DNA of 31,673 bases from a virus, in IMG/VR virus record IMGVR_UViG_3300045988_094921, positions 1-31,673 of that record; one strand, given 5' to 3'. Below the pieces are notes generated by a model. The model ran no database searches. It had not been told where the DNA came from and was given only the letters and a program-made list of their open reading frames with translations. A program made the position numbers and the translations under genes. This document shows, one piece after another, positions 1 through 31,673 of the stretch; the stretch's first letter is position 1, and the number at the start of each line of letters is the position of its first letter.

Positions 1-959
1 TTAGTGAGCTTACTAATGATTCTAACTTTGTAACTGAAACAGAGGTTTCTGGAGATTTAGCAGGTAAAGCAGATAAGACTTATGTTGATGAGCAGCTTGC
101 TACTAAACAGCCTGTAGGAGATTATGCAACAAAAACAGAACTTGCTGGTAAAGCTGATTCTTCTGTGGTAGAATCTTTATCTACTCAAGTAGCAACTAAT
201 ACTTCAGATATATCAATTATTAAAACAAAACAAGAAGAAGATGGAGATAAGATTGATTCTCTTGATAAAGAGATGGCTACTAAGCAAGATTTACTTGTAA
301 GTGGAACTAATATCAAAACAATCAATAGTCAGTCTTTACTTGGAGAAGGTAATATAGAAATTGAAAGTGGTTCTAATATTCCATTTCTATTTATAAATTC
401 CACTACTCATCTTTCTGGAGATTTCGCTGCTGTTAAGAATGCTATAGCTAATAAAACACCATTTGAGCTTTATTATGTAAATATTCTAGGTTATGGTGAT
501 ATAGCAGCTCCAGAAGTATGTTTTGTTTCAGGAGAAAATATTCAAGCTACTTTCCATTTTGAAAGTACTACAGCTAATCATACTGTAGTTCAAACTACTA
601 TTACTCCAACTGGAGTATCAGCAGATACTAGTTATCATAGTTATCAAGAGCAACTAGTTTCTGGTACTAATATAAAGACTATTAATGGTGAAAGTATTTT
701 AGGAGAAGGTAATCTTGAAATATCTGGAGGTGGAGGGACTACTGACTATACTCAGTTAACAAATAAACCTCAGATTAATTCTGTTGAGTTATCTGGCAAT
801 AAGAGTTTATCAGATTTAGGTATTCAGCCTGCTGGAAACTATATTGAAGCTGGAACTGGAACCCAACCTCAAATAAATACTATTACTGTTCTAACTCAAT
901 CAGAATATGATGGTTTATCAACTAAAGATCCTAATACACAATATTTAATTGTAGAATAA
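1..959 (+). CDS. Tail fibre-like protein, C-terminal part (5' end lies outside the window)
   Basis: Frame 3 is open from nt 3 (SELTNDSNFVTETEVSGDLAGKADKTYVDEQLATKQPVGDYATK...) into track ORF 165..959. It has a duplicated LVSGTNIKTINxxSxLGEGNxEI motif and DYTQLTNKPQINSVELSGNKS, both typical of phage fibre repeats. TAA stop at 957-959. Confidence 0.7.
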   Translation, partial: SELTNDSNFVTETEVSGDLAGKADKTYVDEQLATKQPVGDYATKTELAGKADSSVVESLSTQVATNTSDISIIKTKQEEDGDKIDSLDKEMATKQDLLVSGTNIKTINSQSLLGEGNIEIESGSNIPFLFINSTTHLSGDFAAVKNAIANKTPFELYYVNILGYGDIAAPEVCFVSGENIQATFHFESTTANHTVVQTTITPTGVSADTSYHSYQEQLVSGTNIKTINGESILGEGNLEISGGGGTTDYTQLTNKPQINSVELSGNKSLSDLGIQPAGNYIEAGTGTQPQINTITVLTQSEYDGLSTKDPNTQYLIVE

Positions 960-960
960 T

Positions 961-1803
961 ATGAATATTAGAGATGATTTAAAAACATTTTATGTAGGTA
1001 ACAGACAAGGTACTGCTATTTATGTTGGCAGTACCAAAGTCTGGCCTAGTAATATTTGCACTCCAATAGTATTTAAAAGTTTGGAGTTTAAACAGTTAGT
1101 TATAGATAATCTGTTTCCTGGACAAGATGAAATTACTGATTGTGATGCAAGTACAGTAAATAGTTGGTTTAAAGGTTATAATAGTATATTCGAAAGCACT
1201 TCTATTGAGGATGTATCCGATATGACCTATTTTTCAAATGCAAACATTAATAATGGTAATGGATTATTTTATGGGTGTAGTAACTTAAAAATTGTTCCCA
1301 ATATATTATCTAGATTTACTCAATTTAGTCAAATGTTTCAAAACTGCTCCTCTTTAGTTTCTGTGCCAGATATTAATAATCAAATAGCTGTTGCATATCA
1401 TTATATGTTTAGTGGTTGTAGTGCTTTAAAAAATGCACCAAATATAAATATGAGTAATGCAATACCCGTAGACAATATGTTTAGAGGTTGTATATCTTTA
1501 GAATCAGTGCCACAATACAATGCAGAAAAGTGACAGGATTATAGTAATATATTTGCTTCTGGGCCTTTTTCTTATTTGACAGATTTAGGAGGGTTTACTA
1601 ATATAGGGAAAAGCACTAAAATAGAAATATTAAATTTATCAAACTTACCAGTATTAACGAGTCAGTCAGTAGATAATGTTATAGATGGATTATATACTAC
1701 AGATAGAAATTTAATAATCAAATTTCATCAAACTGTATATAACTCATTAACAGAAGAGCAAAAATCACAAATCACCAGTAAAGGCTGGTCAGTAACATAT
1801 TAG
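961..1803 (+). CDS. BspA/DUF285-like leucine-rich-repeat protein, probable receptor-binding tail component
   Basis: Track ORFs 961..1533 and 1576..1803 share a frame and are joined by one TGA (1531-1533) with no TAA or TAG between them. Repeats of the form MFxxCxSLxxxP (LFYGCSNLKIVP, MFQNCSSLVSVP, MFSGCSALKNAP, MFRGCISLESVP). The C-terminal ~50 aa is paralogous to the end of 3219..4190. Confidence 0.75.
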
Positions 1804-1804
1804 T

Positions 1805-2041
1805 ATGAAAATTGAAATTAAAGAAAAATATAAAGTAGTTAGTCCAGAAGAAGGTTATGTACTTACTAACTATAAAGAAGGAATGGATATTAAATTATAC
1901 AGTTCATTTACTGAATGTATCTGTCCTTTAAGTTGCGATTTAGAGCATCTATCAGAAGTCTCTTTAGATAAGGATGCTGAATATAAAGAATTAGCTATTA
2001 AAGCTTCTAAAGAGTATGAGGAATCAATAAAAGTTAGATAA
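1805..2041 (+). CDS. Hypothetical protein (78 aa)
   Basis: Complete ORF packed tightly between neighbours (the upstream stop at 1801-1803 sits immediately before its ATG at 1805). No recognisable motif. Confidence 0.6.
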   Translation: MKIEIKEKYKVVSPEEGYVLTNYKEGMDIKLYSSFTECICPLSCDLEHLSEVSLDKDAEYKELAIKASKEYEESIKVR

Positions 2042-2043
2042 TT

Positions 2044-2703
2044 ATGATTATACTTAAGAATACTAAAAATACACAAACTTTTTATGTAAGTAAGAAATGT
2101 GGTATTGAACCTGGACAACTTCCTGTTGGTTCTTATACTAAGATTGAAGCAGATGAAAGATTTCAACCTAAAGGTAATTACATTTCTGAGGAGAAAGCAG
2201 AAGAGTTAATTGATACTAAAGTAACAGAAAGTATTGAAGATCAAGTTCCTCCTTTAGTAGATCAATCTATAGATGCTAAACTTGTTCCAATTAATACTGA
2301 GATTACTAATCTTAAAGGGGAAGTTGAGGAGTTAGAAACTTCTAAGATGGAAGTATTCCAAGCTAATCAACCTCTATCTTTACATAGAAATGGAGAAGGT
2401 TTGCAACTATCTGTAGATTTAAGTAATTATGCAACTAAAGCAGAAATTCCTGATACTAGTGATTTTGCTACTAAAGAAGAGCTTACAGCTGTAGAGAATA
2501 AGATTCCTGATGTATCTGGATTAGCTACTAAAGATGAAGTTGCACTTAAAGCAGATAAAAGTGAGTTATCAAACTATGTAACTACAGATGCATATAATAC
2601 AAAGATGACAGAGTTAGATGGAGAAATCTCAGCAATTCAAGCTCAGATTGGTAATATTTCAACTACTCTTGATACAATTAATGGTGAAATTCCAAATGAA
2701 TAG
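2044..2703 (+). CDS. Tail fibre-like coiled-coil protein
   Basis: 219-aa ORF with repeated xxATKxE(I/L/V) units ([51 protein letters not shown]), the same repeat family as the fibre genes at both window ends. Confidence 0.7.
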
Positions 2704-3217
2704 AGTATTAACAAATTATCCTAACTATAGTGTATCTTCTACAGGAGATGTATATAGTAACCCATTGACTTTTAAAGATTCTATTGGAAGAACCAGAAAA
2801 CAAATACATAAAAAGCTAAAACAGCATATAGATAAATATGGCTATAATTATGTAATTCTAGTATCTGGCTTAGATAAACCTAAAGCTATTAAAGTTCACA
2901 GACTAGTAGCAGAAGCATTTATTCCAAATCCTGACAATCTACCATATGTTAACCATATAAATGAAAATAAGACAGATAATAGGGTAGAAAATTTAGAATG
3001 ATGTGATGCAAAGTATAATAATACATATGGAACTAGAATAAATAGATGTATTGATAAAATTAGTAAACCTGTAGGGCTATTTATTAATGATTTACTAGTT
3101 AAAACATATAAAAATGCAATTGAAACATCAATAGATGGGTATACTCATAGTAGAGTTATAGATTGTCTTAAAGGAAGAACAGACACTTATAAAGGGGTAA
3201 AATTTAAATATATCTAA
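2696..3217 (+). CDS. HNH homing endonuclease (NUMOD4-like N-terminus, HNH core, C-terminal DNA-binding module), copy 1
   Basis: The ATG at 2696 overlaps the upstream TAG (ATGAATAG). [12 protein letters not shown]...[17 protein letters not shown] then TGA (2999-3001) then [12 protein letters not shown]. This is the conserved NLEWC motif, and the paralog at 13407..13901 spells the same W with TGG. TAA at 3215-3217. Confidence 0.85.
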
Positions 3218-3218
3218 T

Positions 3219-4190
3219 ATGGCAAATACAATTTCTGATAAATTAACGTATCTTGAAGGTACTAAGAGTGCCATTAAAGATGCTATTGTAGCTAAAGGTG
3301 TTGCTGTATCAGATTCCGATACCTTTAGAAGCTATGCAGATAAGATAGGACAGATTTCTGGAGGTGGTGGAGGAAAGGTTAATTTAAATGATTATGGATT
3401 AACATTTGCATATTCTAGTATGACACAAGAACAATATAATAATATAGAATATTCTCTTCCAGATAATATAAATAATTGATTTGATGGGACTAATTTCATA
3501 TCTACAATAGATATATCAAGTCATATTGATCTGTCTAAAGTATATGACGCATCATATGCCTTCCAAAACACATATAATATATATATTGATAATATAAGAA
3601 CTAGAGTTGGGGATTCGTACGCATTTTCTGGATTTCGAGGCACACTAAATAATTTAGAATTAATTAATACCTCAGCCTTTAGTTGAAGTTATGCAACAAG
3701 AACATTCTTTAATGCTTTTAATTTACCGACTACTTTAAAAGTGATAAATGAAGTTGATACTTGTGTATCATCTTTACAATTTTTCTTTTATTCTGTTAGC
3801 AGTAATGTTCCTGAAATTGAAGTTATTAATGGACAACTATCTTTATATTATTACTTTAGTTCAGATAATGAGGGTGTTACAACAGTAGGAAAAATTAAAT
3901 TAAATAATTGCACATTAACAGAAGATCTAAATGAAACTTCAATATGTGCATATGCTAATACTACTGTTACTTATTTTGGGGGTGTTGAAGGAGCTGATAA
4001 AAGTATGAATTTAGCAAATTTTAGAGCACTAAATAGTCAATCAGTAACTGATATTATTACAAATGTTAGTGATTTAACTGGAAAGGATACCAAAACTTTA
4101 ACTTTTTATACTAACGTTTATAATGCACTTACTGAGGAACAGAAATCATTAGCCACATCTAAAAACTGAACTTTAGCAAGTTTAAACTAA
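3219..4190 (+). CDS. LRR-like receptor-binding or tail protein, paralog of 961..1803
   Basis: Track ORFs 3219..3479 and 3741..4169 share a frame and are joined through TGA at 3477, 3684 and 4167. The true stop is TAA at 4188-4190. The N-terminal LTYLEGTKSAIKDAIVAKGVAVSDSDTFRSYADKI plus a Gly linker is common in phage fibre and LRR proteins. C-terminal NVYNALTEEQKSLATSKN(TGA)T aligns with TVYNSLTEEQKSQITSKG(TGG)S of 961..1803. Confidence 0.75.
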
Positions 4191-4343: not shown

Positions 4344-4736
4344 ATGAATTATACTCTATTAATGCAAAATACAACTACTAAAGAAGTTTATACATTTGAT
4401 CTTGAAAATCAGAATTATTCTGAGAATATCTACTATAAGTTTGATATTACACTTCAAGAAGGAATGAGAGATGGTGAATATCAATATATTTTATTTACTA
4501 ATCCAAATAAATTTCAAGTTATAGTTGATGTAAACAATCCATTTAGATCAGAGTTATATGGCAATCCAGTTATTCTGGTTACATATAATAATACTCTTAC
4601 TAATGGTACTCAGATATTAGTTGCTGGTAAACCAATACCTATATTGGGAACAGGATTAATAAGAATTGGAGATTATGAGAATAATAATTATCAATACGAC
4701 AAACCTAATACATACGTAAGTTATGAGCGAAAATAA
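4344..4736 (+). CDS. Hypothetical protein (130 aa), first gene of the portal module
   Basis: Complete ORF. Its end overlaps the portal start by 14 nt. No motif recognised. Confidence 0.6.
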   Translation: MNYTLLMQNTTTKEVYTFDLENQNYSENIYYKFDITLQEGMRDGEYQYILFTNPNKFQVIVDVNNPFRSELYGNPVILVTYNNTLTNGTQILVAGKPIPILGTGLIRIGDYENNNYQYDKPNTYVSYERK

Positions 4737-5814
4737 AACAAAAGTTCAGTTAAGTGCTATTGATCCATTTATTGCAAGTAATATCGTATTACCTACAGAA
4801 ACTAAAGTGAGAGGAAAAGATTATGTAATGTGAGGAGAAGATAATAAATATCCATTATATCTATGGGATTTATATTTAAATGTTGCCACTCTCCAATCCA
4901 TTATTAATGGTTCTGCTGACTTTATTGTTGGTAACGATGTTAAATGTAATGCTCCAGGATTTGAGGTAGTTGTAAACAAGAAAGGTGAAACAATAGTTGA
5001 TATAATGAGAAAAATCACTATTGATAAGATGATATTTGGAGGTTATGCTATCCAAGTAATTAGAGATATGCTCGGAAGAGTTGCAGAGATCTATCATATT
5101 GATTTTATGAATGTAAGGTCAAGCGAAAAGAATGATATATTATATTATGCAACTGATTGGACAGCTTGGTCTGTAAAAGCTATAAAATATCCAAAATTTG
5201 GAGCTGGGGATGAAAATCCAGCTAGTATATTTTATAATAAAGGTTATATAACAAGAGGAGTATATCCTATTCCTGTTTATGGAGCTGCTATTTTATCTTG
5301 TGAAACTGAGAAAAATATTAATGAATTCCATTTAAATAACATCAATAATGGATTTATGGGTAATCTTATTATTAACTTTAATAATGGGGAACCTACAGAT
5401 GAAATTAGAGAGGAGATTGAGAGGAATATTAATGAGAAGTTCTCTGGTTATCAGAATGCTGGCAGAATATTGATTTCATATAATGCAGATGAGGCAAATA
5501 AGACTACTATTGAAAGATTAGATTCTGATGATTTTGATGAGAAATATCAATCATTATCTGAGAGAACCAGAGATCAAATATTCTGTGCCTTCAGAGCTAA
5601 TCCTTCGTTGTTCGGTTTAAACTATAGCTCAGGATTTAATGAAAATGAGTTTAATGAAGCATTTAAGCTATATAATCGTACTTTTGTACGCCCAATACAA
5701 TCAGAAATTTGTGACTCATTTGATAAAATCTTCGGCATTAAGAATAGTATTACTATTGAACCATTTAGTTTAACTCCAAAAGGAATGTCAGACAATGCAG
5801 AAAATGTTGAATAA
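4723..5814 (+). CDS. Portal protein
   Basis: The ATG at 4723 is in frame with track ORF 5005..5814 through one TGA (4831-4833, YVM-W-GEDNKYPLYLWDLY). 363 aa. The overall pattern (IINGSADFIVG..., MIFGGYAIQVIRD..., FMGNLIINFNNG..., SERTRDQIFCAFRANPSLFG) resembles phage portal proteins. Confidence 0.7.
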
Positions 5815-6447
5815 TTATACAGTGTACTGCCATAAGAATATAGCTGATAATAAATTATATTTTGGAATAACATCACTTACTTTAAATAATAGATGGGGAA
5901 CTAAAGGTCAAGGTTACAAGAATAATCTTTATTTTAGCAGAGCAATTAAAAAATATGGTTGAGATAATTTTGAGCATATTATAATTAGAGATAATCTTCC
6001 AGAAGCTTGTGCTAAGACTTTAGAAAAGATTCTGATTTATAAGTATAATACTAGAAATCCAAAATATGGGTATAATTTAACTGATGGAGGAGACGGTACT
6101 TGTGGATATTCTTTTTCACAAGATTATAAAGATAGTCTTAGAATTATAAGATCAGGAGAAAATAACTCATTTTATGGTAAACAGCATTCAGATGAAAGCA
6201 AGCGTAAAATGAGGGAGGCAAAACTCCTTGAAATAAAGGTATGAAACTCTCAGATAAAGAAAAACAACTAATTTCAGAACGTCAGTGCAAAAAAGTATAT
6301 AAGTATGATTTAGATGGTAATTTTATTTGTGAGTATAAATCAGCTAAGGAAGCTGGAGAGAAGAATAATGTAGATTCTTCTAGTATATCTAGATCTTGTA
6401 GAAAAAATAAACCCTGCAAAAATTATAAATATTATTATGGAATATAG
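5804..6447 (+). CDS. GIY-YIG homing endonuclease, copy 1, with a broken reading frame (needs a -1 shift at A-run 6220-6223)
   Basis: Frame 2 from ATG 5804 gives MLNNYTVYCHKN..KLYFGIT...AIKKYG(TGA)DNFEH...YGYNLTDGGDGT...FYGKQHSDESKRKMREAK. The C-terminal DNA-binding part (KTP(TGA)NKGMKLSDKEKQLIS...KVYKYDLDGNFICEYKSAKEAGEKNNV) is in frame 1 (track ORF 6241..6447). Frame 2 itself stops at 6269-6271. Confidence 0.7.
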
Positions 6448-7114
6448 AAATGTACTATTAATATCTGAAGATTATATAAAATCAGAATCCAATTTAGACA
6501 ATAATGTTTCTGGTAAATATCTTCAGTCAGCAATTAAACTTGCACAAGATATTGAGCTTCAGTCATTAATTGGAACTAAGCTCTTAGAAAAGATTCAGAA
6601 ATTAGTAATTGATTGAAAAGATCCAAATAAACCAGTTCATCCAATAGAACCTCCTATTTATGATCCTACTTCAATAGATGACCCAGAAAATCATAGATAT
6701 AAAGAATTGCTAGATTACTATATTCAGCCTTATTTACTTTATCAAGTATTAAGTGAGATTACTATACCCATCTCATTTAAGCTGAGTAATTTTGGGGTTA
6801 TGAGGACTGATGATGAGAAAGATTTAACTTCTGATATTAATCAAGTTAATCTTATTAAGAAGTATTATAGAGATAAAGCAGATTTCTTTAAAACTAGATT
6901 GCAAAATTGGGTAATTACATATTATAATGATTTTCCTGAATTGTATTCTTATAAACCTCTTAAAGATATGTATCCAAATATGTATTCAAGTTCATCTTGC
7001 ACTATTTGGTTAGGTGGAGCTAGAGGTAAAGGTTGGAGATATAATTCTTGTGAAGGTCCTCTGCAAAGAGCTTATGATTTCCCTTCAAGTGATAACAATA
7101 AAAAGAGTAAGTAA
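6437..7114 (+). CDS. Possible head-tail connector or adaptor protein
   Basis: The ATG at 6437 (MEYRNVLLISEDYIKSESNLDNNVSGKYLQSAIKLAQDIELQSLIGTKLLEKI) is joined to track ORF 6707..7114 through TGA 6614-6616. The N-terminal pattern and position after the portal resemble gp6-like connector proteins. The functional call is tentative. Confidence 0.5.
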
Positions 7115-7115: not shown

Positions 7116-7541
7116 ATGACGTATTTTGAATTAATAAACAATTTAAAAGCTTGTGCTCTTGAAGAACCCAATATTAATTTTGTAGGAAGTAAGGATATAT
7201 ATGAACTTAATAGTATCCCAACTATTGAATATAATGTATTTTATATAACTCCAAATACATTTAATATGGATGAGGATACTATTACTTACTCTTTAAATCT
7301 CTATTTTATAGCAAGATGGGATGAAACTGATAATAATCAGCTTGAAGAGCAATCAGCTGGAATATTAGCATTAACTAATATAATTAACCGATTTAATAAC
7401 CAATATCCAGAAGTTGATATTTCTTATCCTTTAATTTTTACTCCATTTTATCAGAAGTTCAAAGATATTTGTACTGGAGTATTTGTTAGAGTTGATTTAG
7501 CTGTAGACAACACTCTGGGTACTTGTTCTGATAATATGTAA
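7116..7541 (+). CDS. Hypothetical structural-module protein (141 aa)
   Basis: The ATG at 7116 (MTYFELINNLK...) is internal to track ORF 7014..7541. The upstream extension overlaps the previous gene in another frame. Confidence 0.6.
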   Translation: MTYFELINNLKACALEEPNINFVGSKDIYELNSIPTIEYNVFYITPNTFNMDEDTITYSLNLYFIARWDETDNNQLEEQSAGILALTNIINRFNNQYPEVDISYPLIFTPFYQKFKDICTGVFVRVDLAVDNTLGTCSDNM

Positions 7542-8197: not shown

Positions 8198-8359
8198 ATG
8201 AAATATTGGATGAAATATTTAATAGCAATAGTAATTATAATCTTAGTATTTTTAATGGTAAAAGTAATTCCATTTTGGATTACATTAGTACTCATAGCAC
8301 TTGGTGCAGGATGTCATTTATTTTACCGTTATACTATGCTTAAAGATATTATTAAATAA
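8198..8359 (+). CDS. Holin candidate (53 aa, two predicted transmembrane helices)
   Basis: MKYWMKYLIAIVIIILVFLMVKVIPFWITLVLIALGAGCHLFYRYTMLKDIIK. Two hydrophobic stretches and a charged C-terminus. Its stop overlaps the endolysin ATG (TAATG). Confidence 0.6.
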   Translation: MKYWMKYLIAIVIIILVFLMVKVIPFWITLVLIALGAGCHLFYRYTMLKDIIK

Positions 8360-20828: not shown

Positions 20829-20830
20829 TT

Positions 20831-23800: not shown

Positions 23801-24187
23801 CAGCCTGGAGAAACAGAATTGACAGTTACATATAATGAGAATACTACATATGACCAAAGGAGTTTCTATTTTAGTCTTTATAAACAAGGAAGTATAAATG
23901 GCCCTCAATGTATGTTTACTCAAACTCCAGACCCAAATAAAGCTATTCTTATTACAGGAAAGCTTCAAACTTCTACTGGAGGTATTCCTTCTGGTGTTAA
24001 TCAGATTCTAACTGAAAATGATAATGTCTTAAATGTCACTTATATGAGAGATGATGGAAGTTATAGAATATATGCTCAAAATGGAGTTCAATTTTTATTT
24101 AGAGTATCTGACGGACCAACAGGAACAATTAAATATACAGAGAATTTAACACTAACAGAAGATACTGTTAAAAATATTACAATCTAA
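20831..24187 (+). CDS. Very large tail or baseplate protein (1118 aa) with a C-terminal BACON-like domain, probable host-recognition or tail-tip protein
   Basis: Track ORFs 20831.., 21398.., 22691.., 23483.. and 23819..24187 all share frame 2 and are joined through about ten TGA codons. The C-terminal IP(TGA)ELG(TGA)YSPNEIVSITPESGQPGETELTVTYNENTTYDQRSFYFSL looks like a BACON domain. TAA at 24185-24187 overlaps the next ATG. Confidence 0.7.
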
Positions 24188-26946
24188 TGGCACAAACAGA
24201 AATTAAAAAAGTAATTAGTGTAGATACTAAATCAAGTAATAAATCAATAAATTCTTTAAAGAAAGATATTGATGCATTAACTAATTCGCTGAATGATTTA
24301 GAGATTGGTACTAAGGAATATAATGAAACTCTTTCATTACTTGGTAAGAGACAATCAGAATTCAATAAAATTAATGAGCAGATAGCAAGATCTTCGAGAA
24401 CTACTGCTCAAAGATTTGAAAGTGTAGCTAAAATATCCACTGGCTTAGCTAGTGGATATGGTGCTGCAACTGCTGCTATTACTTTATTTGGGAAAGAATC
24501 AGAAGATTTAAATAAAGTAATGGTTAAGTTACAATCTACTATTGCTTTAGTTCAAGGTGTGGGAGGTATAAAAGATTTATTAGAAGAATTGCCTACTTTA
24601 GGTAATTGGTTTAAGAAATTAACTGATTTTATCTCTCCATTTAATACAGGATTGAATAATGCTGCCAAAAACCTTAATCAGATTGATACATCTAAGCTTA
24701 ATAGCATTGGCACATCTGTTGGTAATGTTGGAACTGAATTAGGTAATATCTCTAAAGTAGTCAAGGATTTAGAAGGCACCAATATTAATCTAAGAGGTGG
24801 AATGGTTCAGGGTATGCTTGGGACTCCTGCTGAAATATCTGCTTCTAATAAAAGTGTCTCTAATACAATTCCGATTATAGGTAAATTAGGAGAAACTGCA
24901 AAAAAGTCCTTTGAAGAAGTAAAACCTACATTTACTACAGTTGCTGAATTTTTAAAGGAAGCAGCAAAAGAGACTGGAACTCCAGCAGAGAGAATGCAGA
25001 AAGCTGCTAAACGTTTAGGTGTAGATCTTAATGAATTAAAGGAAAATGTAGAAAAAGGCATTCCAACTTTGCGAAAAGGAGCAGAGGCTCAGAAAGCAAT
25101 GGCTGAAGCTTCAGAACAAGCTGCTTCTGGAGTAGGTAAAGTTAAAACTGCACTTAAAACTATTGGTAATGTAACTGTATGAATTGCATTAGCTACAGCT
25201 ATTGGAGTAGCTATTAATAAGATAATAGAGTATATATCCTCAATAAAATCAGCTGAAAAGGAGGCTGCTGAATTTAGAAAGTCTATTACAGATACTACTA
25301 ATCAGATTGCTTCTAAATCTATAGCTATCTTTAGAGAGTTACAAATAGCTTACGAAAGAGTTGGAGATTCTGCAGATGCTAAGCGTAAGTTTATAGAGCA
25401 ATATTCCGATAAGATTAAAGAGACTGGTTTAAATATCACTAATGTAAAGACTGCAGAAGATGCGTTTGTAAATAATACAGGCAATTATGTAGAAGCCTTA
25501 GAAGCAAGAGCTAAAGCACAAGCTATTGAACAGGCTGCAATTAAACTTTATGAGGAGTATTTAAACAAACGTACTGAACTGGAGAATCAAATTTCTGATA
25601 CAAGTTTTGGAGAGGCATCTGCTTGGCAGGCTTTTAAAGCTACAGCAATGTTCTGAAAAGATTATTCAAATACAATTTATGAGTATACAAAGCAAAATAA
25701 AGAGAATACTTATAAACAGTTGGATGATTTAAATAAAGACATTGAGAAAAGGCTTAAAAAGCTATTTGAGGATGTAGCAGATACTAATAAAAAGTATGGT
25801 GGGTTCTTTAATATTCCAACTATTACAAAGAACACTACTGAAGCTAAGAAGGTAATAAATGAATTTGATGAATGGCTTCAAAAGAGATTAGAGGATAAAG
25901 ACCCAGTAGATGAACTTGAAGATGAATATATTAGACTATTAGCACTAGCTATTAAAAATAATAGAAGTATTGAAGAAGTTGAGGCTTGGCATCAAGAAGA
26001 GCTGAAGAAAATTAGAGATAAGGCTAGAGAAGATGAAGAAAATGCAAGAAAAAGTGCTGCGGATAAAGCTTGAGATGATCTGCAGACTGAGTTAAAAAGA
26101 ATGCGCGAGGCAAGGTATGATATAAAAGATCCATCTTTAGAAATTCCTAAAACTCAATATACACAAGGATTTGCCAAAATATTTGGATTAAGTGGTGAGT
26201 TCTCTTATTCAAGCAAAAAAGACATAGAGGGATATAAAGATCGTTTATTAGGAACAGATACTGAAGAAGGTTCTATAGATAAATATAATAATCAAATAAA
26301 AACAAGATTGGAGGAGCAGAAGTCTTTTCTATTAAAACAATTAGAAAATGAGACTTTAACAGCTGATCAGAGAAAACTTATTAAACTAGAATTAGATTCT
26401 ATTGATGAGCAATTAACTGAAAATGAAATAGACAGAGAAAATAAGAAAAACAAAGTTAGAGAAAATGTTAATAAGCAATATCAAGAATCTATAAAAGCTC
26501 GCCTTGATCTAGCATCAAAGGTTGCAGGAAGTATGGCAACTATATGAGGAGAGGAAAGTAAAGTAGGTAAAGGATTCGCAACAGCTCAAGCTTTAATTGA
26601 TACATATAGTGCAGCTAACAGTGCTTATTCTGCAATGGCTGGTATTCCAGTTGTAGGTCCAGCTTTAGGTGCTGCCGCCGCTGCTGCAGCAATTGCAGCT
26701 GGTATAGCTAATGTTAAAAAGATTTGAGAAGTAGATGAAACTAGTGGAGCATCTGCATCTTCTGCTTCTGCATCTGTTGCAGCACCTGCTGCTTTAAACA
26801 CTACTCCTGTAGAATACACTCGAAACTTACTTGGTGATAAAGAGACTGATTTATTAAATGAACCTGTTAAATGCTATGTAGTTGAGAGTGATATTACTAA
26901 TGCTCAAACTAAAGTTGCAGTTACAGAATCAAATGCAAGTTTCTAA
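24187..26946 (+). CDS. Tape measure protein (919 aa)
   Basis: Track ORFs 24187.., 25720.. and 26101.. are in one frame, joined through TGA at 25180, 25654, 26071, 26545 and 26725. Long coiled-coil-prone Lys/Glu-rich sequence plus a C-terminal Ala/Gly-rich hydrophobic segment (AMAGIPVVGPALGAAAAAAAIAAGIANVKKI). TAA at 26944-26946. Confidence 0.65.
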
Positions 26947-27140: not shown

Positions 27141-27731
27141 ATGGAAAAAATGTATAATGATCTTCCATTATATCAAGCAATTATTGCTGATGATTGTGAT
27201 GGAATAGAGTTCGTAGCATTGACCAGTAAACCTGCAACCCAAGTTAATTGGCTTGCTTTTGGGGAATCTCAGAAGTTCTCGATGGATGAAGAAAAACATA
27301 TAGTTACTTCTTGTTTAATGGTATGTGATATACCTATATTTAGACGGGATAGTAAAAACGGAGAATATTATATTCAATATGATAAAGAAACTCTCCGTTT
27401 AATGGCTGAAAAAATGATGTATGATAAGAGAACTACTGATGTAAATATTGAACATTTGGAAGATTCAGTAATTCCTGGAATAATTCTTCAAGAACTATAT
27501 GTTAAAGATATAGATAGAGGAATTAATCCAGTTGAATTTGCTGATTGTCCAGATGGTTCATTATTTGCTACTTATAAAGTAAATAATCCTGTTATATGGG
27601 ATGCAATTAAAGCTGGAAAGTTTAAAGGGTTCTCTATTGAGGGATTGTTTACTTTAGAAAGACAATCTGATGAATATGAGGAACTTAAAGAGATTCAAAA
27701 AATGTTGAGAAAAATAAAAAGAGTTAAATAG
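27141..27731 (+). CDS. Putative prohead serine protease (XkdF-like)
   Basis: 196-aa ORF directly upstream of the scaffold and capsid genes. The pattern ...IVTSCLMVCDIPIFRRD...DVNIEHLEDSVIPGIILQELYV... resembles the XkdF/Peptidase_S78_2 family. No TGA. Confidence 0.5.
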   Translation: MEKMYNDLPLYQAIIADDCDGIEFVALTSKPATQVNWLAFGESQKFSMDEEKHIVTSCLMVCDIPIFRRDSKNGEYYIQYDKETLRLMAEKMMYDKRTTDVNIEHLEDSVIPGIILQELYVKDIDRGINPVEFADCPDGSLFATYKVNNPVIWDAIKAGKFKGFSIEGLFTLERQSDEYEELKEIQKMLRKIKRVK

Positions 27732-27732
27732 A

Positions 27733-28344
27733 ATGTATAGTGGAGTTATATATCTAGCAACAAATCTTATAAATGGCAATAAATATGTAGGACAAACAAA
27801 TAATTTCTTGAGAAGAAAGAATGAACATAAATACAGTTCTAATCTTACATATTTTCATAGAGCGATTAGGAAATATGGATTCAATAACTTTAAATGGGAA
27901 ATTCTTCAAATCTTTTGTTGTTCTTCTACAGAATTATTGAAAAGACAACTAAATAATGCAGAAATTAAATATATTCAGTTATTTGATACATTAAATAATG
28001 GTTATAATTTAAATGAAGGTGGAGGTTCTAATACTGGATTTAAACACAGTGAAGAATCTAAACACAAAATGTCTTTAAAACAGTCTGGAAGAGTATTAAA
28101 GGATGAAACAAAATTAAAGTTAAGAGAATGTAGATTGGGAACTAAACAAACTGAACAGCAGAAAGAAAAAGTAAGTAAACGTATAATTATGACAGATATT
28201 AATGATACTTATATATGCACTTGGAAATCTGCTATGGACGCTGAAAGAAACGGAAATTTTGATCATAGTGCTATTATAAAATGTTGCAAAAATAAACAAA
28301 ACTATCATAAAAATTTTAAATTTAAGTATGAACAAATTAACTAA
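27733..28344 (+). CDS. GIY-YIG homing endonuclease, copy 3 (divergent from copies 1 and 2)
   Basis: MYSGVIYLATNLINGNKYVGQTNNFLRRKNEH...AIRKYGFNNFKWEIL, NUMOD3-like GFKHSEESKHKMS, and a C-terminal CTWKSAMDAERNG module. It sits between the protease and scaffold genes. No TGA; its Trp codons are TGG. Confidence 0.85.
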   Translation: MYSGVIYLATNLINGNKYVGQTNNFLRRKNEHKYSSNLTYFHRAIRKYGFNNFKWEILQIFCCSSTELLKRQLNNAEIKYIQLFDTLNNGYNLNEGGGSNTGFKHSEESKHKMSLKQSGRVLKDETKLKLRECRLGTKQTEQQKEKVSKRIIMTDINDTYICTWKSAMDAERNGNFDHSAIIKCCKNKQNYHKNFKFKYEQIN

Positions 28345-28939
28345 ACTGAGAATCGAACTTAGTAAACTCTTAGCAAAATTTAACGATGTTAAGACTAGTG
28401 CTGGAGTTCTAACTTACGATGGTAGTGAGGATGAGGATCTAAGGGCAGGTATGAGTGTATATACAATGGATACTGATACTGGCGAATATGCACCTGCTGC
28501 TGATGGTGAGTATGTTACCGAAGATGGCAAAACGATTGTTGTTAAAGACGGTAAAGTAGAGTCCATTACTGATCCTAAAGCTGAAGTTGATCCTGAAGAA
28601 GACAGAACTGTTGAGGTTGATGCTGCTTGTGGAACTAAGAGAGTAAAAGCTGAGGAAGTTGCTGATCCTGCTGTTGAAACAGACGGTGTTAAAGAAACTG
28701 AGACTGATGCAATCGACGCTATTCATCGCGAAATTAATGAGCTCTATGATATTGTAGATAAGCTTGTTAAGAAAGTAGCAGAACTTGAAGGAAAATCAGA
28801 AGCTACTGAAAAGACTGTAGAAAAAATGAGTAAGATGAGTGCTGCTTTTTCAGCAGAGGAAACACTCGAAAATAAAACAACTGCTCCTATAAGTGGAATA
28901 GCAGAAATAGATAGAAAGCTTAAAAACTTTATTGGTTAA
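28328..28939 (+). CDS. Scaffolding protein (putative)
   Basis: 203-aa highly acidic, helical and coiled-coil-prone protein immediately upstream of the major capsid gene. No Trp and no TGA. Confidence 0.6.
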   Translation: MNKLTKLRIELSKLLAKFNDVKTSAGVLTYDGSEDEDLRAGMSVYTMDTDTGEYAPAADGEYVTEDGKTIVVKDGKVESITDPKAEVDPEEDRTVEVDAACGTKRVKAEEVADPAVETDGVKETETDAIDAIHREINELYDIVDKLVKKVAELEGKSEATEKTVEKMSKMSAAFSAEETLENKTTAPISGIAEIDRKLKNFIG

Positions 28940-28960
28940 TTTATAAAATTTTAAATAATT

Positions 28961-29866
28961 ATGGCAAATAGTCCTGTAATGACAACTCTTCCTGCTTATG
29001 TGGAGCAAAGACGTCTCCCTCTTATTAAGGAAGCTGTTTTAAAAGCTAAGAGTGCAAGTTTGTTCAATCTTCAGACAGATATTAAAACTGATGCTGCTCT
29101 TAACCTGTTATCTACCGATGTTCAGTTCGGTGATGGTCTTACTTGTGGTTGGGATGAGGCTGGAACTCAGACTCTTTCTCAGAGAATTCTTAAGACTGGT
29201 AATATTAAGATTAATATGGCATATTGCGATAAGGCTATGCTGAAATACTGGACTCAGTATGCAGTTAAGGTAGCCGCTGGTCAGAAGACACTTCCTTTTG
29301 AAGAGGATTTCGTAAATGCTGTTGTAGAGAATGTAAAAGAGGCTATTGAGGTAGCTATCTGGCAGGGTGATACGGCTTCAGAAACTAATAACTTGAAGTA
29401 TTTTGATGGTCTGCTTAAGATTCTTGCTGCTGATAATGGTACTGTAGATGTAACAATTGCTGGAACATCTGCCTATACTGATATTATGGCAGTTTATAAT
29501 GCAATTCCTGAGAAGGTTCTTGATGGTGCTTCTATTCTTGTTGGTGCCGATATGTTCCGTAAGTTCGTAAATGAACTTGTTGAGAAGAACTATTTCCACT
29601 ATAGCGGAGAGAGCCTTAATGGTGAGATTTATCTTCCTGGTTCACAGGTTAAGGTTATTGCTGTTAATGGTCTTAATGGAACTGATAAGATTGTTGCTGG
29701 TCAGTTAGACAAGAACTTCTTCTATGGTGTAGATATGATGAACGATGAAGAGAAATTCGAATTGTGGTATTCACAGGATTTCCGCGAGTTCAGATTAGCT
29801 ATTGAATTTAACGCTGGTGTACAAGTTGCTTTCCCTGACGAAGTAGTATTAGGCGCCAAGGCTTAA
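28961..29866 (+). CDS. Major capsid protein (HK97-fold type)
   Basis: 301-aa ORF after the protease and scaffold genes. Visibly higher G+C and biased codon choice. All four Trp codons are TGG. Confidence 0.75.
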   Translation: MANSPVMTTLPAYVEQRRLPLIKEAVLKAKSASLFNLQTDIKTDAALNLLSTDVQFGDGLTCGWDEAGTQTLSQRILKTGNIKINMAYCDKAMLKYWTQYAVKVAAGQKTLPFEEDFVNAVVENVKEAIEVAIWQGDTASETNNLKYFDGLLKILAADNGTVDVTIAGTSAYTDIMAVYNAIPEKVLDGASILVGADMFRKFVNELVEKNYFHYSGESLNGEIYLPGSQVKVIAVNGLNGTDKIVAGQLDKNFFYGVDMMNDEEKFELWYSQDFREFRLAIEFNAGVQVAFPDEVVLGAKA

Positions 29867-29906
29867 TTTCAATAGATTTTATTAACTTCTAAATGATATT
29901 GAAATT

Positions 29907-30431
29907 ATGGCTTGTTTAATAACTATCGCAGGAATCACACTTGATTGCCAACCTTCATTGGGTGGAATCAAACAGGTATGGATTACCCAGTATGCAGATG
30001 TTAAAAGTGTAACGGTTGATCCTGAGAGCAATATGATTTCAGCTATTACTCTTGAGTCTTCAGCTAAATGGTATAACTACCAATTTAGAAAGGCTACTGG
30101 TTCTCTAACCTCAACTTTAAATGTAGATGAAAGTGCTGGTGTTAATTATGTAAGTAATGAGCTTGCTCTTGTATTTACAAAGATGGAAACAGCAAAACGA
30201 GTAGAGATTGCAGCTTTATCAATTGGTCAGCTTGCAGTTGTTGTTGAAGATAGCAATGGTAAGTATTGGTTCTTAGGTAAAGATGATTATGTAAGCGCTT
30301 CCGCTGGTACGGGTGTTACTGGTACTGCTAAAGGTGATCAGAATGCTTATACTCTGACACTTTCAACAGATTCAGATTCTTATCCTTATGAGTTATCTGC
30401 AGAAGCTATCCAAAGCGTTGTAGGTGCTTAA
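29907..30431 (+). CDS. Possible major tail (tube) protein
   Basis: 174-aa beta-rich protein (ITIAGITLDCQPSLGGIKQVWITQYADVKSV...LAVVVEDSNGKYWFLGKDD...) resembling siphovirus tube proteins. Same codon style as the capsid gene and followed by a strong terminator. Confidence 0.45.
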   Translation: MACLITIAGITLDCQPSLGGIKQVWITQYADVKSVTVDPESNMISAITLESSAKWYNYQFRKATGSLTSTLNVDESAGVNYVSNELALVFTKMETAKRVEIAALSIGQLAVVVEDSNGKYWFLGKDDYVSASAGTGVTGTAKGDQNAYTLTLSTDSDSYPYELSAEAIQSVVGA

Positions 30432-30442
30432 TAACAGAAAGA

Positions 30443-30479
30443 GGGGCGAGTATTAATTTACTTGCCCCTTATTTTGTTT
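30443..30479 (+). terminator. Strong rho-independent terminator of the capsid operon
   Basis: GGGGCGAGTA (30443-30452) pairs with TACTTGCCCC (30459-30468) with one G-T pair and a 6-nt loop, followed by TTATTTTGTTT. Confidence 0.8.
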
Positions 30480-30522
30480 ATATACCACATAATGAATAAT
30501 TTATATTTTATAGAAAAATAAT

Positions 30523-31673
30523 ATGGCAAACGAAACTGAAAAGACAATTCTTCCCTATCTTAATGTCCTTGAAGTCGAAACAATAGATAAGTCAAATGTG
30601 ACTAAAGTTATTGTTATTGACAAGGATGATGAAGTTAAGGTTATGGATGGTTCTCAGTTAGGATCAAGTAACTATCAAGATCTTCAATTTAAGCCTGAAA
30701 TCAATGGGGTTGAATTAAATGGAAATATTCCTTCTAAAGAATTAGGAATTCCTTCTATTGAAGATGTTGATAATCAGATTACTGAGAAACTAGCTGACTA
30801 TCCAACTAAAGAAGAGGTAACTACAGAGATTACTGAAGCCACTGCTGGAAAGCAAAATACACTCGTTCAAGGTGACGGTATAGTAATTGAAGAGAATACT
30901 ATTTCTGCAGATTATAATACTATTCGTAACAAACCATCTTTAAATGGAACTGAATTATCTGGAGCAGCTTCAATAGTACCTGCCATTAATATTCAATCAG
31001 TCCCATCTAAAGTTACTTTAGCTCCTGTATTTGGTAATCAAACTGGAGAAGCAGTTGAACTTCCAATATATAATACAGAGACTAATCAAGCTGGTATTGT
31101 TAATGGTCCTCTATATGCACAATTAGCAGATAAATATACTAAAGCTGAAATTGATGCTTTAAATACAGCTATTAATAAAGAGATAGCTTCAAAACAAGGA
31201 ACGCTTACAGCAGGAAAGAATATATCTATTATAGATAATGTAATCTCTGCTTTTGAGAATCATTTCTTACTTAATTTAGATGAGAATGATCCTGTAAGAC
31301 AGAAACATATCTATGACTTTATTAGAACTAATCTGGACTTCTATTTATTCTGCCAGATTACATATAAAGGTGATATTATAGTTATTCCTGTTGCAACTAT
31401 TGAGCATCCCGAAACTATTGATTTATATGGCTATTATTTCCAAGATAATGGTGTATTAGTAGTTATTAATGCAATCTTAGTAAATAATGGTAATATGACT
31501 GTTAAAGTTACTGAGGTTGATCTTACTAATAAAGGTTATACTAAAGATGAAGTAGATGAGAAACTTGCAACTAAGCAAGGTGTATTTACTCCACAAGCTC
31601 CATTAGCTTTTAATGAAGATAAAACTCAGTTATCTGTAGATTTATCTGGATACCAACCAGTTGGTGATTATGC
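30523..31673 (+). CDS. Tail fibre-like protein, N-terminal part (3' end outside the window)
   Basis: The ATG at 30523 opens a frame that stays open to the window end (not in the track because it has no stop). Contains DLQFKPEINGVELNGNIPSKELG, DYNTIRNKPSLNGTELSG and LATKQ...YQPVGDYA, the same repeat family as 1..959 and 2044..2703. Confidence 0.7.
   Translation, partial: MANETEKTILPYLNVLEVETIDKSNVTKVIVIDKDDEVKVMDGSQLGSSNYQDLQFKPEINGVELNGNIPSKELGIPSIEDVDNQITEKLADYPTKEEVTTEITEATAGKQNTLVQGDGIVIEENTISADYNTIRNKPSLNGTELSGAASIVPAINIQSVPSKVTLAPVFGNQTGEAVELPIYNTETNQAGIVNGPLYAQLADKYTKAEIDALNTAINKEIASKQGTLTAGKNISIIDNVISAFENHFLLNLDENDPVRQKHIYDFIRTNLDFYLFCQITYKGDIIVIPVATIEHPETIDLYGYYFQDNGVLVVINAILVNNGNMTVKVTEVDLTNKGYTKDEVDEKLATKQGVFTPQAPLAFNEDKTQLSVDLSGYQPVGDY

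What the first reader, a model, noticed from the sequence alone, without database searches (positions are those of the whole stretch)
1..31673. TGA is a sense codon (Trp) across the window: a stop-codon-recoded phage
**Seen directly.** The standard-code ORF track leaves large apparently non-coding gaps: 3002-3218, 3480-3740, 7542-8197, 14182-15322, 19050-19685 and 21698-22690. In each gap the flanking ORFs share a frame and are separated only by TGA, never by TAA or TAG. Reading TGA as sense gives near gap-free packing with ATGA and TAATG start/stop overlaps, and every gene then ends in TAA or TAG.

**The amino acid is Trp.**
- HNH motif NLE-TGA-C at 2999 and in copy 3, against NLE-TGG-C in the paralog at 13407..13901.
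- LRR paralogs have SKN-TGA-T (4167) against SKG-TGG-S.
- The M15 endolysin metal motif is H-TGA-VH (8740).
- T5orf172 has E-TGA-LELP.
- The BACON-like domain has IP-TGA-ELG-TGA-Y.

I count roughly 55-60 in-frame TGA by hand. I could not see a tRNA-like sequence in any intergenic gap.

**Host signals.** Promoter signals (TTTG-N20/21-TAnnTTTG) and the lack of Shine-Dalgarno sequences point to a Bacteroidota-type host, which is expected to use the standard code. So either a suppressor tRNA(UCA) lies outside this window, or the host natively reads UGA as Trp. Stop-codon recoding in gut phages is published. What stands out here is the small genome, the apparent lack of a suppressor tRNA in about 32 kb, and recoding that reaches early genes.
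Basis: partly seen in the sequence, partly recalled or inferred. Interest (0 to 1): 0.8.

Follow-up and report, generated by a model that had tools for sequence, protein, structure and literature searches.

The report
Gut phage reading TGA as tryptophan
This is the almost complete 31.7-kb genome of an uncultured human-gut phage that reads the stop codon TGA as tryptophan; this kind of recoding is already published, but this phage and all its sequenced relatives carry no tRNA gene that could explain how TGA is decoded.

Summary
**Observation confirmed.** Reading TGA as sense raises + strand ORF coverage from 60% to 84%. There are 54 in-frame TGA codons in 22 of 41 genes. All 40 genes with a stop in the window end in TAA or TAG.

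**The amino acid is Trp, not Gly.** The evidence is TGA/TGG swaps among relatives, TGG in standard-code relatives, I-HmuI, and an invariant endolysin Trp.

**The window is a whole contig.** It is a circular genome lacking only 26 nt. Neither it nor about 35 recoded relatives has any tRNA. "A suppressor tRNA outside the window" is therefore excluded.

**The host is probably a standard-code Bacteroidota.**
- TTTG-N19-21-TAnnTTTG promoters are conserved at matching positions.
- There is no Shine-Dalgarno signal.
- The helicase has homologues in Bacteroidota-type integrated elements.
- A standard-code sister phage has the same promoter type and uses TGA as a stop.

**TGA is selected against.** It makes up 44% of Trp codons, against 81% A-ending in other codon pairs. 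It is almost absent from the early helicase (1/81) and the major capsid protein (0/169).

**Verdict.** This is a new member of a known kind. The decoding mechanism is unresolved. I infer host tRNA-Trp(CCA) with RF2 neutralised.

The parts
1..31673 (.). Whole contig: a circularly permuted, near-complete phage genome with 26 nt missing at the junction. GC is 29.3%. TGA is used as a sense codon and there is no tRNA gene.
   Evidence: The contig is ENA CHAT13-1_SAMEA2163432_METAG-scaffold_1308, 31673 bp. Relatives L001, L011 and L013 bridge the end to the start with 26 nt, in frame.
961..1803 (+). DUF285/LRR-like protein with one in-frame TGA (1531).
2618..3217 (+). HNH homing endonuclease with TGA at 2999 in the NLE-W-C motif.
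   Evidence: (TGG in standard-code relatives).
3219..4190 (+). LRR-like paralogue with TGA at 3477, 3684 and 4167.
   Evidence: (site 317: TGA 22, TGG 10 in the clade; TGG 2 in standard-code relatives).
4723..5814 (+). Portal protein with TGA at 4831.
   Evidence: standard-code relatives: TGG 10, TAT/TAC 7; clade: 18 TGA / 126 TGG.
5795..6271 (+). GIY-YIG/NUMOD3 endonuclease with TGA at 5960 and 6242.
6437..7114 (+). DUF6712 protein with TGA at 6614.
7541..8194 (+). Protein of unknown function next to the lysis genes, with TGA at 7580, 7805, 7976 and 8141.
   Evidence: clade: 74 TGA / 58 TGG.
8359..8808 (+). Peptidase_M15_3 endolysin with TGA at 8740, just before the catalytic His (x-W-V-H).
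   Evidence: All 35 aligned homologues (45-84% identity) have W in this column. Many database copies are 127 or 129 aa long, that is, cut at this TGA.
8750..9391 (+). GIY-YIG endonuclease with TGA at 8942 and 9377.
9954..11672 (-). SF2 helicase-like early protein (572 aa) behind two host-type promoters. It is TGA-free (0 TGA / 5 TGG).
   Evidence: clade: 1 TGA / 80 TGG; AlphaFold pLDDT 83; Foldseek hits to DEAD-box helicases, Mfd, UvsW and HSV-1 origin-binding protein.
11820..11932 (-). Two tandem Bacteroidota-type promoters (TTTG-N19-21-TAnnTTTG) facing the helicase gene.
   Evidence: conserved at matching positions in 22 relatives; 76 matches against about 20 expected.
11921..12514 (-). T5orf172/MUG113 protein with TGA at 12203, 12110 and 12014.
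12473..12505 (+). Bacteroidota-type promoter for the rightward operon.
12544..12983 (+). First two ORFs of the rightward early operon (62 aa and 79 aa). Both are TGA-free, which would make them candidates for an early factor if one exists.
   Evidence: no family match.
12983..15233 (+). Rightward operon genes carrying TGA:
- a 145-aa protein (13055);
- HNH (13470, 13887);
- sigma region-2 ORF (14179);
- sigma region-4 ORF (14288);
- HNH (14551, 14686, 14896);
- a membrane protein (14988, 15027, 15069).
16003..17250 (+). Large terminase with TGA at 16561.
17252..18645 (+). Two head/neck genes: 17252-17893 (TGA at 17321) and 18157-18645 (TGA at 18208).
18648..26946 (+). Three large tail genes of 726, 1118 and 919 aa, with 6, 10 and 5 in-frame TGA.
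   Evidence: The public gene catalogue already lists products of 726, 1118 and 919 aa.
27141..30431 (+). Capsid block: prohead protease, GIY-YIG insert, scaffold-like protein, major capsid protein (28961-29866) and a 174-aa virion protein. The block has 0 TGA and 11 TGG.
   Evidence: Fisher p=9e-4 against the rest; clade: major capsid protein 0/169, 174-aa protein 1/95, scaffold 0/24.
30523..31673 (+). 5' part of the tail-fibre gene. It continues at 3-959 after the missing 26 nt, giving 711 aa.

Best explanation
**What it is.** The window is the essentially complete genome (about 31.7 kb) of an uncultured tailed phage from the human gut. It has no integrase. UGA is a tryptophan codon (genetic code 4), and all termination uses UAA or UAG.

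**Host (inferred, about 0.75).** The host is most likely a Bacteroidota bacterium with the standard code.

**Decoding (inferred).**
- The phage and its whole clade encode no tRNA, so UGA must be read by a host tRNA.
- The most likely reader is tRNA-Trp(CCA), pairing C:A at the third codon position (about 0.4).
- Competition from release factor 2 would have to be removed, either by a still unidentified phage factor or by a property of the host.
- The phage itself needs only RF1, because it has no UGA terminators.

**Cost of UGA.** UGA decoding looks conditional or costly. The early SF2 helicase and the most abundant virion proteins exclude TGA almost completely. Tail, lysis, homing-endonuclease and LRR genes use it freely.

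**Status of each step.**
- Shown: TGA is a sense codon, it means Trp, there is no tRNA, and TGA use differs by gene.
- Inferred: the host phylum, and how UGA is decoded.

**What the confidence covers.** The confidence value refers to the shown part plus a standard-code host. The decoding route has its own lower estimate, given above.
For: **Sense codon.**
- ORF coverage and length rise only for TGA-sense.
- Domains continue across TGA, for example the HNH alignment to I-HmuI runs through X88 to residue 148.
- The endolysin's catalytic His lies after the TGA.

**Trp.**
- Window TGA sites align in recoded relatives to TGA 702, TGG 306, TAT 51 and GGA 8.
- In standard-code relatives TGG is the commonest aligned codon, at 34.
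- Of 976 TGA codons in relatives, 72% align to window TGA and 14.4% to window Trp. That is a 20-fold enrichment, and Gly is not in the top 12.
- I-HmuI has W at NLE-x-C.
- 35 of 35 endolysin homologues have W at the TGA column.

**No tRNA.** Searches find none. Genome closure is shown.

**Host.**
- Two-part Bacteroidota-type promoters are conserved at matching positions: 76 found against about 20 expected.
- SD-like cores occur upstream of 5 of 40 genes, against 3.6 by chance.
- The helicase has homologues in a Hymenobacter chromosome. It also has homologues in integrated elements with Arm-DNA-bind_5/Phage_int_SAM_5 integrases and BACON neighbours.
- The standard-code sister phage L036/L092 has the same promoter type. 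It ends its sigma region-4 gene and one other gene in TGA.
- A related TAG-recoded prophage sits in a standard-code contig.

**Cost or conditionality.**
- TGA makes up 44% of Trp codons, against 81% A-ending in other NNA/NNG pairs.
- Helicase 1/81, major capsid protein 0/169, 174-aa virion protein 1/96 and scaffold 0/24 across the clade (TGA out of all Trp codons). Tail genes run at 30-40%.
- Within the window, Fisher p=6e-5.

**RF1 suffices.** Stops are TAA 30, TAG 10 and TGA 0.

**Literature.**
- UGA read-through by tRNA-Trp(CCA) variants is shown in E. coli (PMC13092985).
- Most code-4 phages lack a detectable suppressor tRNA (10.1101/2021.08.26.457843; PMC11210395).
Against: - No host genome, CRISPR spacer match or proteomic datum was available. 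The host and the decoding route are inferences.
- Genes with up to 10 TGA need near-complete read-through. Near-cognate decoding has not been shown to reach that level in any Bacteroidota.
- No candidate RF2 inhibitor or tRNA-modifying enzyme was recognisable. Pfam, PHROGs and NCBIfam found nothing in the early ORFs.
- TGA occurs in genes only about 500 nt downstream of a host-type early promoter (13055). Any switch must therefore act very early.
- The orthologue counts are not phylogenetically independent.
Confidence: 0.8

Rival explanations
1. The host itself reads UGA as Trp (a native code-4 organism). The phage simply shares its host's code and needs no machinery of its own.
For: - There is no tRNA in the whole clade.
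- TGA appears soon after an early promoter.
- One protein matches DUF285, a family named for Mycoplasma.
- GC is low, at 29%.
- Most isolated code-4 phages infect Mycoplasma or Spiroplasma (PMC11210395).
Against: - The phage encodes an M15 peptidoglycan peptidase, so the host has a cell wall.
- Bacteroidota-type promoters are conserved and there is no SD signal.
- TGA is only 44% of Trp codons against 81% A-ending elsewhere. It is excluded from the helicase and the capsid genes. That is not expected where UGA is a normal codon.
- A sister phage with the same promoter type uses TGA as a stop.
- Other relatives are TAG-recoded.
- A survey of 42,109 genomes found UGA-to-Trp in four phyla. The passages I read name no Bacteroidota among them (PMC13092985).
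Confidence: 0.08
2. A suppressor RNA exists but escaped detection. It could be a highly non-canonical tRNA in one of the conserved intergenic regions, or it could be supplied by a co-resident element.
For: - Borges et al. suggest that non-canonical phage tRNAs may be missed (10.1101/2021.08.26.457843).
- Four or five conserved intergenic motif-plus-hairpin elements of unknown function exist.
Against: - ARAGORN at default settings, in mitochondrial mode and at relaxed thresholds gives nothing credible.
- Rfam covariance models at E<=1 give nothing.
- The candidate with anticodon tca lies antisense inside a coding gene and has broken stems.
- The hairpin loops of the repeated elements are not conserved and contain no UCA anticodon loop.
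- None of 80 related loci has a tRNA.
Confidence: 0.05
3. TGA encodes glycine (code 25), as in phages of Absconditabacteria and Gracilibacteria.
For: Code-25 phages occur in gut and oral samples (10.1101/2021.08.26.457843). GGA is occasionally aligned to TGA sites (8 of 1178).
Against: - Trp dominates every test.
- Gly is not enriched at TGA-aligned positions.
Confidence: 0.01
4. The TGA codons are real stops. On this view the genes are fragmented pseudogenes, subject to rare programmed read-through, or assembly errors.
For: Under code 11 the ORFs do end at these positions. Many database copies of the endolysin are annotated as 127 or 129 aa.
Against: - The same TGA positions are kept or swapped with TGG in dozens of independent assemblies from different samples.
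- Sequence stays conserved downstream of TGA, and catalytic residues lie beyond it.
- There are 10 TGA in one 1118-aa conserved tail gene.
Confidence: 0.01

Closest known systems
Stop-codon-recoded gut phages of Borges et al. (code 4 and code 15). Named clades include Agate, Jade and Sapphire (large) and Garnet, Amethyst and Topaz (22-34 kb). bioRxiv 10.1101/2021.08.26.457843.
   Same: - TGA means Trp, in phages predicted to infect standard-code Bacteroidetes or Firmicutes.
- Close relatives use the standard code or TAG recoding.
- The standard-code relative is depleted in TGA stops (L036: 1 of 22).
- A key early gene is kept free of the recoded codon (the integrase there, the helicase here).
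- Only 35% of code-4 genomes there had a detectable suppressor tRNA.
   Different: - About 35 related genomes here lack any tRNA, over the whole circle.
- The most abundant structural proteins (major capsid protein, scaffold, a 174-aa virion protein) are TGA-free. In that study recoding concentrates in structural and lysis genes.
- There is no integrase, RF1 or TrpRS.
TGA- or TAG-recoded Crassvirales (Yutin et al. 2021, PMC7886860; Mgcod preprint 10.1101/2022.06.29.495998).
   Same: - Bacteroidota hosts.
- Low GC.
- Stop-codon reassignment, with parts of the genome free of the recoded codon.
   Different: - From my own knowledge, those genomes are about 100 kb, often carry suppressor tRNAs and have their own transcription and replication modules.
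- Here the genome is 31.7 kb. The major capsid protein and the DNA have no match in INPHARED.
- The TGA-free genes here do not use TGA as a stop, so this is avoidance and not a second code block.
Phages of Mycoplasma and Spiroplasma (native code 4; PMC11210395).
   Same: TGA means Trp and no suppressor tRNA is needed.
   Different: - Those hosts have no cell wall and natively read UGA.
- This phage has a peptidoglycan peptidase and Bacteroidota-type promoters, and it under-uses TGA.
UGA-to-Trp decoding by tRNA-Trp(CCA) without a tRNA(UCA): Ca. Zinderia, Blastocrithidia, and 4-bp anticodon-stem variants tested in E. coli (PMC13092985).
   Same: UGA is read as Trp with no cognate UCA tRNA. This is the only published route that fits a tRNA-less phage.
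   Different: - It is described for cellular genomes, generally ones without RF2.
- It has not been shown in any phage host.
- Whether this phage's host has such a tRNA is unknown. The paper does record Bacteroides oleiciplenus as carrying both the 4-bp and the 5-bp forms.

Membership tests
Genetic code 4 (TGA = Trp) recoded phage | In-frame TGA lies inside conserved protein-coding genes, and the coding signal continues across it. | tested here: met
   There are 54 in-frame TGA in 22 genes. + strand coverage rises from 60% to 84%. Alignments to I-HmuI and to M15 homologues run through TGA.
Genetic code 4 (TGA = Trp) recoded phage | TGA positions align to tryptophan in homologues. | tested here: met
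   TGG is the dominant alternative codon. Trp is enriched 20-fold, and 35 of 35 endolysin homologues have W.
Genetic code 4 (TGA = Trp) recoded phage | TGA is not used as a terminator. | tested here: met
   Stops are TAA 30, TAG 10 and TGA 0. One ambiguous case: the TGA at 14179 lies 7 codons before the TAA of the sigma region-2 ORF and just before the next ATG.
Genetic code 4 (TGA = Trp) recoded phage | A phage-encoded suppressor tRNA(UCA). This is typical but not universal. | tested here: not met
   There is no tRNA in the window or in 80 related loci.
Genetic code 4 (TGA = Trp) recoded phage | The host uses the standard code, which separates recoding from native code 4. | tested here: inconclusive
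   The evidence is indirect.
- Bacteroidota-type promoters.
- No SD signal.
- A sister phage with TGA stops.
- Bacteroidota-linked homologues.

No host genome was identified.
Genetic code 25 (TGA = Gly) phage of Absconditabacteria or Gracilibacteria | TGA positions align to glycine. | tested here: not met
   GGN codons are rare at TGA-aligned sites: 8 GGA of 1178. Gly is absent from the top residues.
Native code-4 phage (Mycoplasma or Spiroplasma host) | TGA is used like any other A-ending codon of an AT-rich genome, and the host has no cell wall. | tested here: not met
   TGA is 44% of Trp codons against 81% A-ending in other pairs. It is excluded from the helicase and the major capsid protein. 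An M15 peptidoglycan peptidase is present.
Crassvirales | Detectable similarity of the major capsid protein or the DNA to crAss-like phages. | tested here: not met
   Neither megablast nor tblastn with the major capsid protein finds a match in INPHARED at E<=1e-5. That collection, to my knowledge, includes cultured and metagenomic crAss-like phages.
Garnet, Amethyst or Topaz clades (Borges et al.) | Placement inside the clade on the large-terminase tree. | not testable with these tools
The only parallels are size (34 kb), a Prevotella host for Garnet, and a related TAG-recoded prophage (L087).

The most novel reading that the evidence does not exclude
This clade changes the meaning of UGA without any tRNA of its own.
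- A small TGA-free early product would neutralise host RF2. Candidates are the 62-aa and 79-aa ORFs at 12544-12983, the small leftward ORF at 9577-9717, or a virion-delivered protein.
- Host tRNA-Trp(CCA) would then read UGA.
- Because the phage terminates only at UAA and UAG, it would depend on RF1 alone. Host genes ending in UGA would be mistranslated.

That would be a protein-based code switch that also serves as host shut-off. The near-absence of TGA in the helicase and the capsid genes would mark what must be made before the switch, or at highest yield.
Probability: 0.25. Interest if true: 0.8.

Novelty: new member of a known kind. Interest (0 to 1): 0.45.

Why it matters
How recoded phages that lack a suppressor tRNA decode their reassigned stop codon is an open question. 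Surveys report that 65-85% of code-4 phage genomes have no detectable suppressor tRNA.

This lineage is a compact case for studying it:
- The genome is closed, at 31.7 kb with about 45 genes.
- Dozens of sequenced relatives all lack tRNAs.
- A standard-code sister phage and TAG-recoded cousins are available for comparison.
- Very few early genes are TGA-free, so the search for a code-switch factor is small.

There is also a practical point. Standard-code gene callers truncate these genes. For example, many database copies of the endolysin are cut at 127 or 129 aa, so annotation of this lineage needs code 4.

Tried and rejected
- **Non-canonical tRNA.** ARAGORN with lowered thresholds, introns and mitochondrial mode gave only poor candidates. 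These were c[6554,6651] 'SeC tca', antisense inside a gene, and c[11756,11838] 'Cys aca'. Both have broken stems and were rejected.
- **The 148-kb IMG/VR contig as a host clue.** Contig 3300045988_175865 (L029/L079) continues as phage for more than one genome length. It is probably a concatemer or chimera and says nothing about the host.
- **GTDB genome scan with the major capsid protein.** It gave only two distant hits (47-48% identity), in an 'Azospirillum sp. CAG:239' bin and a Bacteroidaceae bin. This is too weak to assign a host.
- **INPHARED searches, DNA and protein.** No match.
- **Nucleotide after TGA as a read-through signal.** Its distribution matches codon position 1 background, so there is no signal.
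- **Family searches of early ORFs for RF-like, tRNA-modifying or aaRS functions.** Pfam, PHROGs and NCBIfam found nothing.
- **Early-region comparison with the standard-code sister phage.** The regions differ too much to single out a clade-specific factor. The helicase family also occurs in TAG-recoded and standard-code elements, so it is not code-specific.
- **Endolysin homologue on a 92-kb contig.** It is another phage, not a host.

Full report
**1. The observation.**

The window has 29.3% GC. With the standard code, ORFs of at least 60 aa cover 60% of the + strand. With TGA read as sense they cover 84%, and mean ORF length rises from 134 to 186 aa. TAG-sense gives 66%. TAA-sense inflates both strands alike, as expected for AT-rich DNA.

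A TGA-sense gene set of 41 genes packs almost without gaps.
- It holds 54 in-frame TGA in 22 genes, against 70 TGG.
- It uses TAA (30) or TAG (10) as terminators and never TGA. The 41st gene runs off the window end.
- Two small ORFs add one TGA each.

**2. TGA means Trp.**

I collected 80 related loci from IMG/VR using the major capsid protein and the 572-aa protein.
- About 35 genomes form a clade that is recoded in the same way: coverage is 0.63-0.88 under code 11 and 0.92-0.97 with TGA-sense.
- In these relatives the window's TGA sites align to TGA 702, TGG 306, TAT 51, TTT 18 and GGA 8.
- In standard-code relatives TGG is the commonest aligned codon, at 34.
- In reverse, 976 TGA codons of relatives align to window TGA (72%) or Trp (14.4%, a 20-fold enrichment). 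Gly does not appear in the top 12.

Two independent standard-code anchors agree.
- SPO1 I-HmuI (PDB 1u3e) has W where the HNH genes have NLE-TGA-C, and F at a second site.
- All 35 aligned endolysin homologues (45-84% identity) have W in the x-W-V-H column.

Code 25 (Gly) is excluded.

**3. The window is the whole genome and has no tRNA.**

The window is an entire ENA contig of 31,673 bp. Relatives join its last base to its first with 26 nt, in frame. This completes a 711-aa tail-fibre gene.

No tRNA was found by any method.
- ARAGORN finds none in the window.
- Rfam models at E<=1 find none.
- Relaxed ARAGORN modes give only broken structures.
- None of the related loci, which together cover the full circle, has a tRNA. 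The standard-code sister phage has none either.

A suppressor tRNA "outside the window" is therefore excluded.

**4. Host.**

TAnnTTTG alone is not enriched (46 found against 48 expected). The two-part motif TTTG-N18-22-TAnnTTTG occurs three times, and all three lie in the divergent early region (11820-11932 on the - strand, 12473-12505 on the + strand). The same motif sits at matching positions in 22 relatives. The boxes are conserved and the spacers vary, with 76 matches against about 20 expected. From established knowledge, this is the Bacteroidota housekeeping promoter type.

Other evidence points the same way.
- SD-like cores precede 5 of 40 genes, against 3.6 by chance.
- The 572-aa protein is an SF2 helicase by structure (pLDDT 83; Foldseek hits to DEAD-box helicases, Mfd, UvsW and HSV-1 origin-binding protein).
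- It has 46-49% identical homologues in a Hymenobacter chromosome. Other homologues lie in integrated elements with Arm-DNA-bind_5/Phage_int_SAM_5 integrases and BACON-domain neighbours.
- One such element (L087) is a TAG-recoded prophage inside a standard-code contig.
- The closest standard-code relative (L036/L092, 66% major capsid protein identity, GC 26-28%) has the same promoter type. TGA is rare among its stops (1 of 22 in L036). It nevertheless ends its sigma region-4 orthologue and one other gene in TGA.

I conclude that a standard-code Bacteroidota host is likely, at about 0.75. No host genome was identified. The single GTDB scan gave only two distant hits.

**5. Pattern of TGA use.**

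Other NNA/NNG codon pairs are 81% A-ending, but TGA is only 44% of Trp codons. TGA against TGG across unique orthologues in the clade:

| Gene | TGA | TGG |
|---|---|---|
| Major capsid protein | 0 | 169 |
| 174-aa virion protein | 1 | 95 |
| Scaffold-like protein | 0 | 24 |
| Prohead protease | 4 | 40 |
| Helicase | 1 | 80 |
| Portal | 18 | 126 |

- The three large tail genes run at 31-40% TGA.
- HNH, GIY-YIG, LRR and tail-fibre genes run at 50-100%, apart from the GIY-YIG insert in the capsid block (0/10) and the LRR-like gene 961-1803 (25%).
- Within the window, capsid block plus helicase has 0 TGA and 16 TGG, against 54 and 54 elsewhere (Fisher p=6e-5).

The orthologues are related, so these counts are not independent. 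Even so, TGA/TGG swaps are frequent at other sites in the same genomes.

Genes behind the rightward host-type promoter do carry TGA from the third ORF on (13055). The first two ORFs and the helicase do not. The nucleotide after TGA shows no read-through context.

This pattern fits a codon that is costly or not decodable at the very start of infection. It does not fit a host in which UGA is an ordinary Trp codon.

**6. Mechanism (inferred).**

There is no phage tRNA, and UAA and UAG are the only terminators. The simplest route is therefore near-cognate reading of UGA by host tRNA-Trp(CCA), with RF2 competition removed. C:A reading by tRNA-Trp(CCA) variants has been shown in E. coli. It is proposed for Ca. 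Zinderia, which has no tRNA(UCA) (PMC13092985). That paper also records a Bacteroides species with both tRNA-Trp forms.

No RF2 antagonist or tRNA-modifying enzyme could be recognised among the early ORFs. This step is a hypothesis.

**7. Comparison with what is known.**

- Stop-codon recoding in gut phages is published, including TGA to Trp, small clades of 22-34 kb and standard-code sister phages depleted in the relevant stop. The same study finds suppressor tRNAs in only 35% of code-4 genomes (10.1101/2021.08.26.457843).
- A second survey found Sup-TCA tRNAs in 15% of table-4 phages, and 46 table-4 vOTUs in the UHGV catalogue (PMC11210395).
- A Dutch cohort study found 21 TGA-recoded contigs against 5706 TAG-recoded ones (PMC9610469).
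- The public gene catalogue already calls this contig's genes in a TGA-sense code.
- The lineage has no match among INPHARED genomes.

This is a new member of a known kind. Three features go beyond the published general picture:
- the complete absence of tRNAs across the whole clade;
- the exclusion of TGA from the major virion proteins as well as from the early helicase;
- the very small set of TGA-free early genes.

**8. Verdict.**

- Interest is moderate, at 0.45.

Noticed in passing
window 4195-4241, 11701-11746, 18042-18087, 27016-27061 (variant near 26946-26970), all on the + strand: A repeated intergenic element, c(A/T)nTTTTTATTT-N15-GAGTAAAAAyTTGACA. Three copies (4195, 11701, 18042) are followed by a clear hairpin and the 27016 copy by at most a weak one.
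- Three copies sit in front of the gene blocks starting at 4344, 18157 and 27141.
- The fourth lies in the intergenic region 11673-11920.
- The core is conserved, always in the same orientation, in nearly all recoded relatives.
- It may be a phage-specific (late?) promoter or a regulatory site, perhaps for the phage sigma factor.
- The hairpin loops are not conserved and do not look tRNA-like.
   Followed up: partly
window 13894-14202 and 14186-14440: An ECF-type sigma factor is split into two overlapping ORFs in different frames.
- The first matches region 2 (model positions 4-104) and the second matches region 4 (positions 117-161).
- The split is conserved in 17 relatives and in the standard-code sister phage (L092 6565-6873 and 6866-7186).
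- This suggests two polypeptides or a programmed frameshift.
- The TGA at 14179 lies just before the second ORF's ATG. Reading it as a stop or as Trp changes only a 7-residue tail.
   Followed up: partly
window 2618-3217, 5795-6271, 8750-9391, 11921-12514(-), 13407-13901, 14425-14910, 27733-28344: Seven homing-endonuclease-like genes in 31.7 kb: three HNH, three GIY-YIG and one T5orf172. They are present only patchily among relatives (3-8 unique orthologues each). One GIY-YIG is inserted between the prohead protease and the scaffold gene.
   Followed up: partly
L087 (ENA LEMO22-1_SAMN17215489 scaffold_71, locus 5900-21740): A TAG-recoded prophage next to an integrase. Coverage is 0.53 under code 11 and 0.88 with TAG-sense. 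It sits in a standard-code host contig (GC 38.6%, flanked by glutamine synthetase and TerC). It carries a 48% identical homologue of the 572-aa helicase.
   Followed up: partly
L058 (Bacteroidaceae MAG contig CAVCAD010000156.1), L046, L048: More distant relatives of the capsid module (45-52% major capsid protein identity) look TAG-recoded. For L058, coverage is 0.73 under code 11 and 0.88 with TAG-sense. This structural-module family therefore contains standard-code, TGA-recoded and TAG-recoded members.
   Followed up: partly
L029 and L079 (IMGVR_UViG_3300045988_175865, 148,631 bp): The last 33.5 kb or so of this 148-kb 'viral genome' already spans more than one unit length of the 31-kb phage. 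The contig is probably a concatemer or a multi-strain chimera and not a large phage or a host fragment.
   Followed up: partly
window 8359-8808 and its database homologues: Dozens of public protein entries for this endolysin are 127 or 129 aa long. They are cut exactly at the TGA before the catalytic His, because the gene callers used code 11.
   Followed up: yes
window 17894-18156: This 263-nt 'intergenic' stretch holds a 31-codon ORF (17941-18036) with an in-frame TGA. A longer stop-free reading frame begins right after the stop of 17252-17893. It may be an unannotated small gene or a frameshift extension.
   Followed up: no
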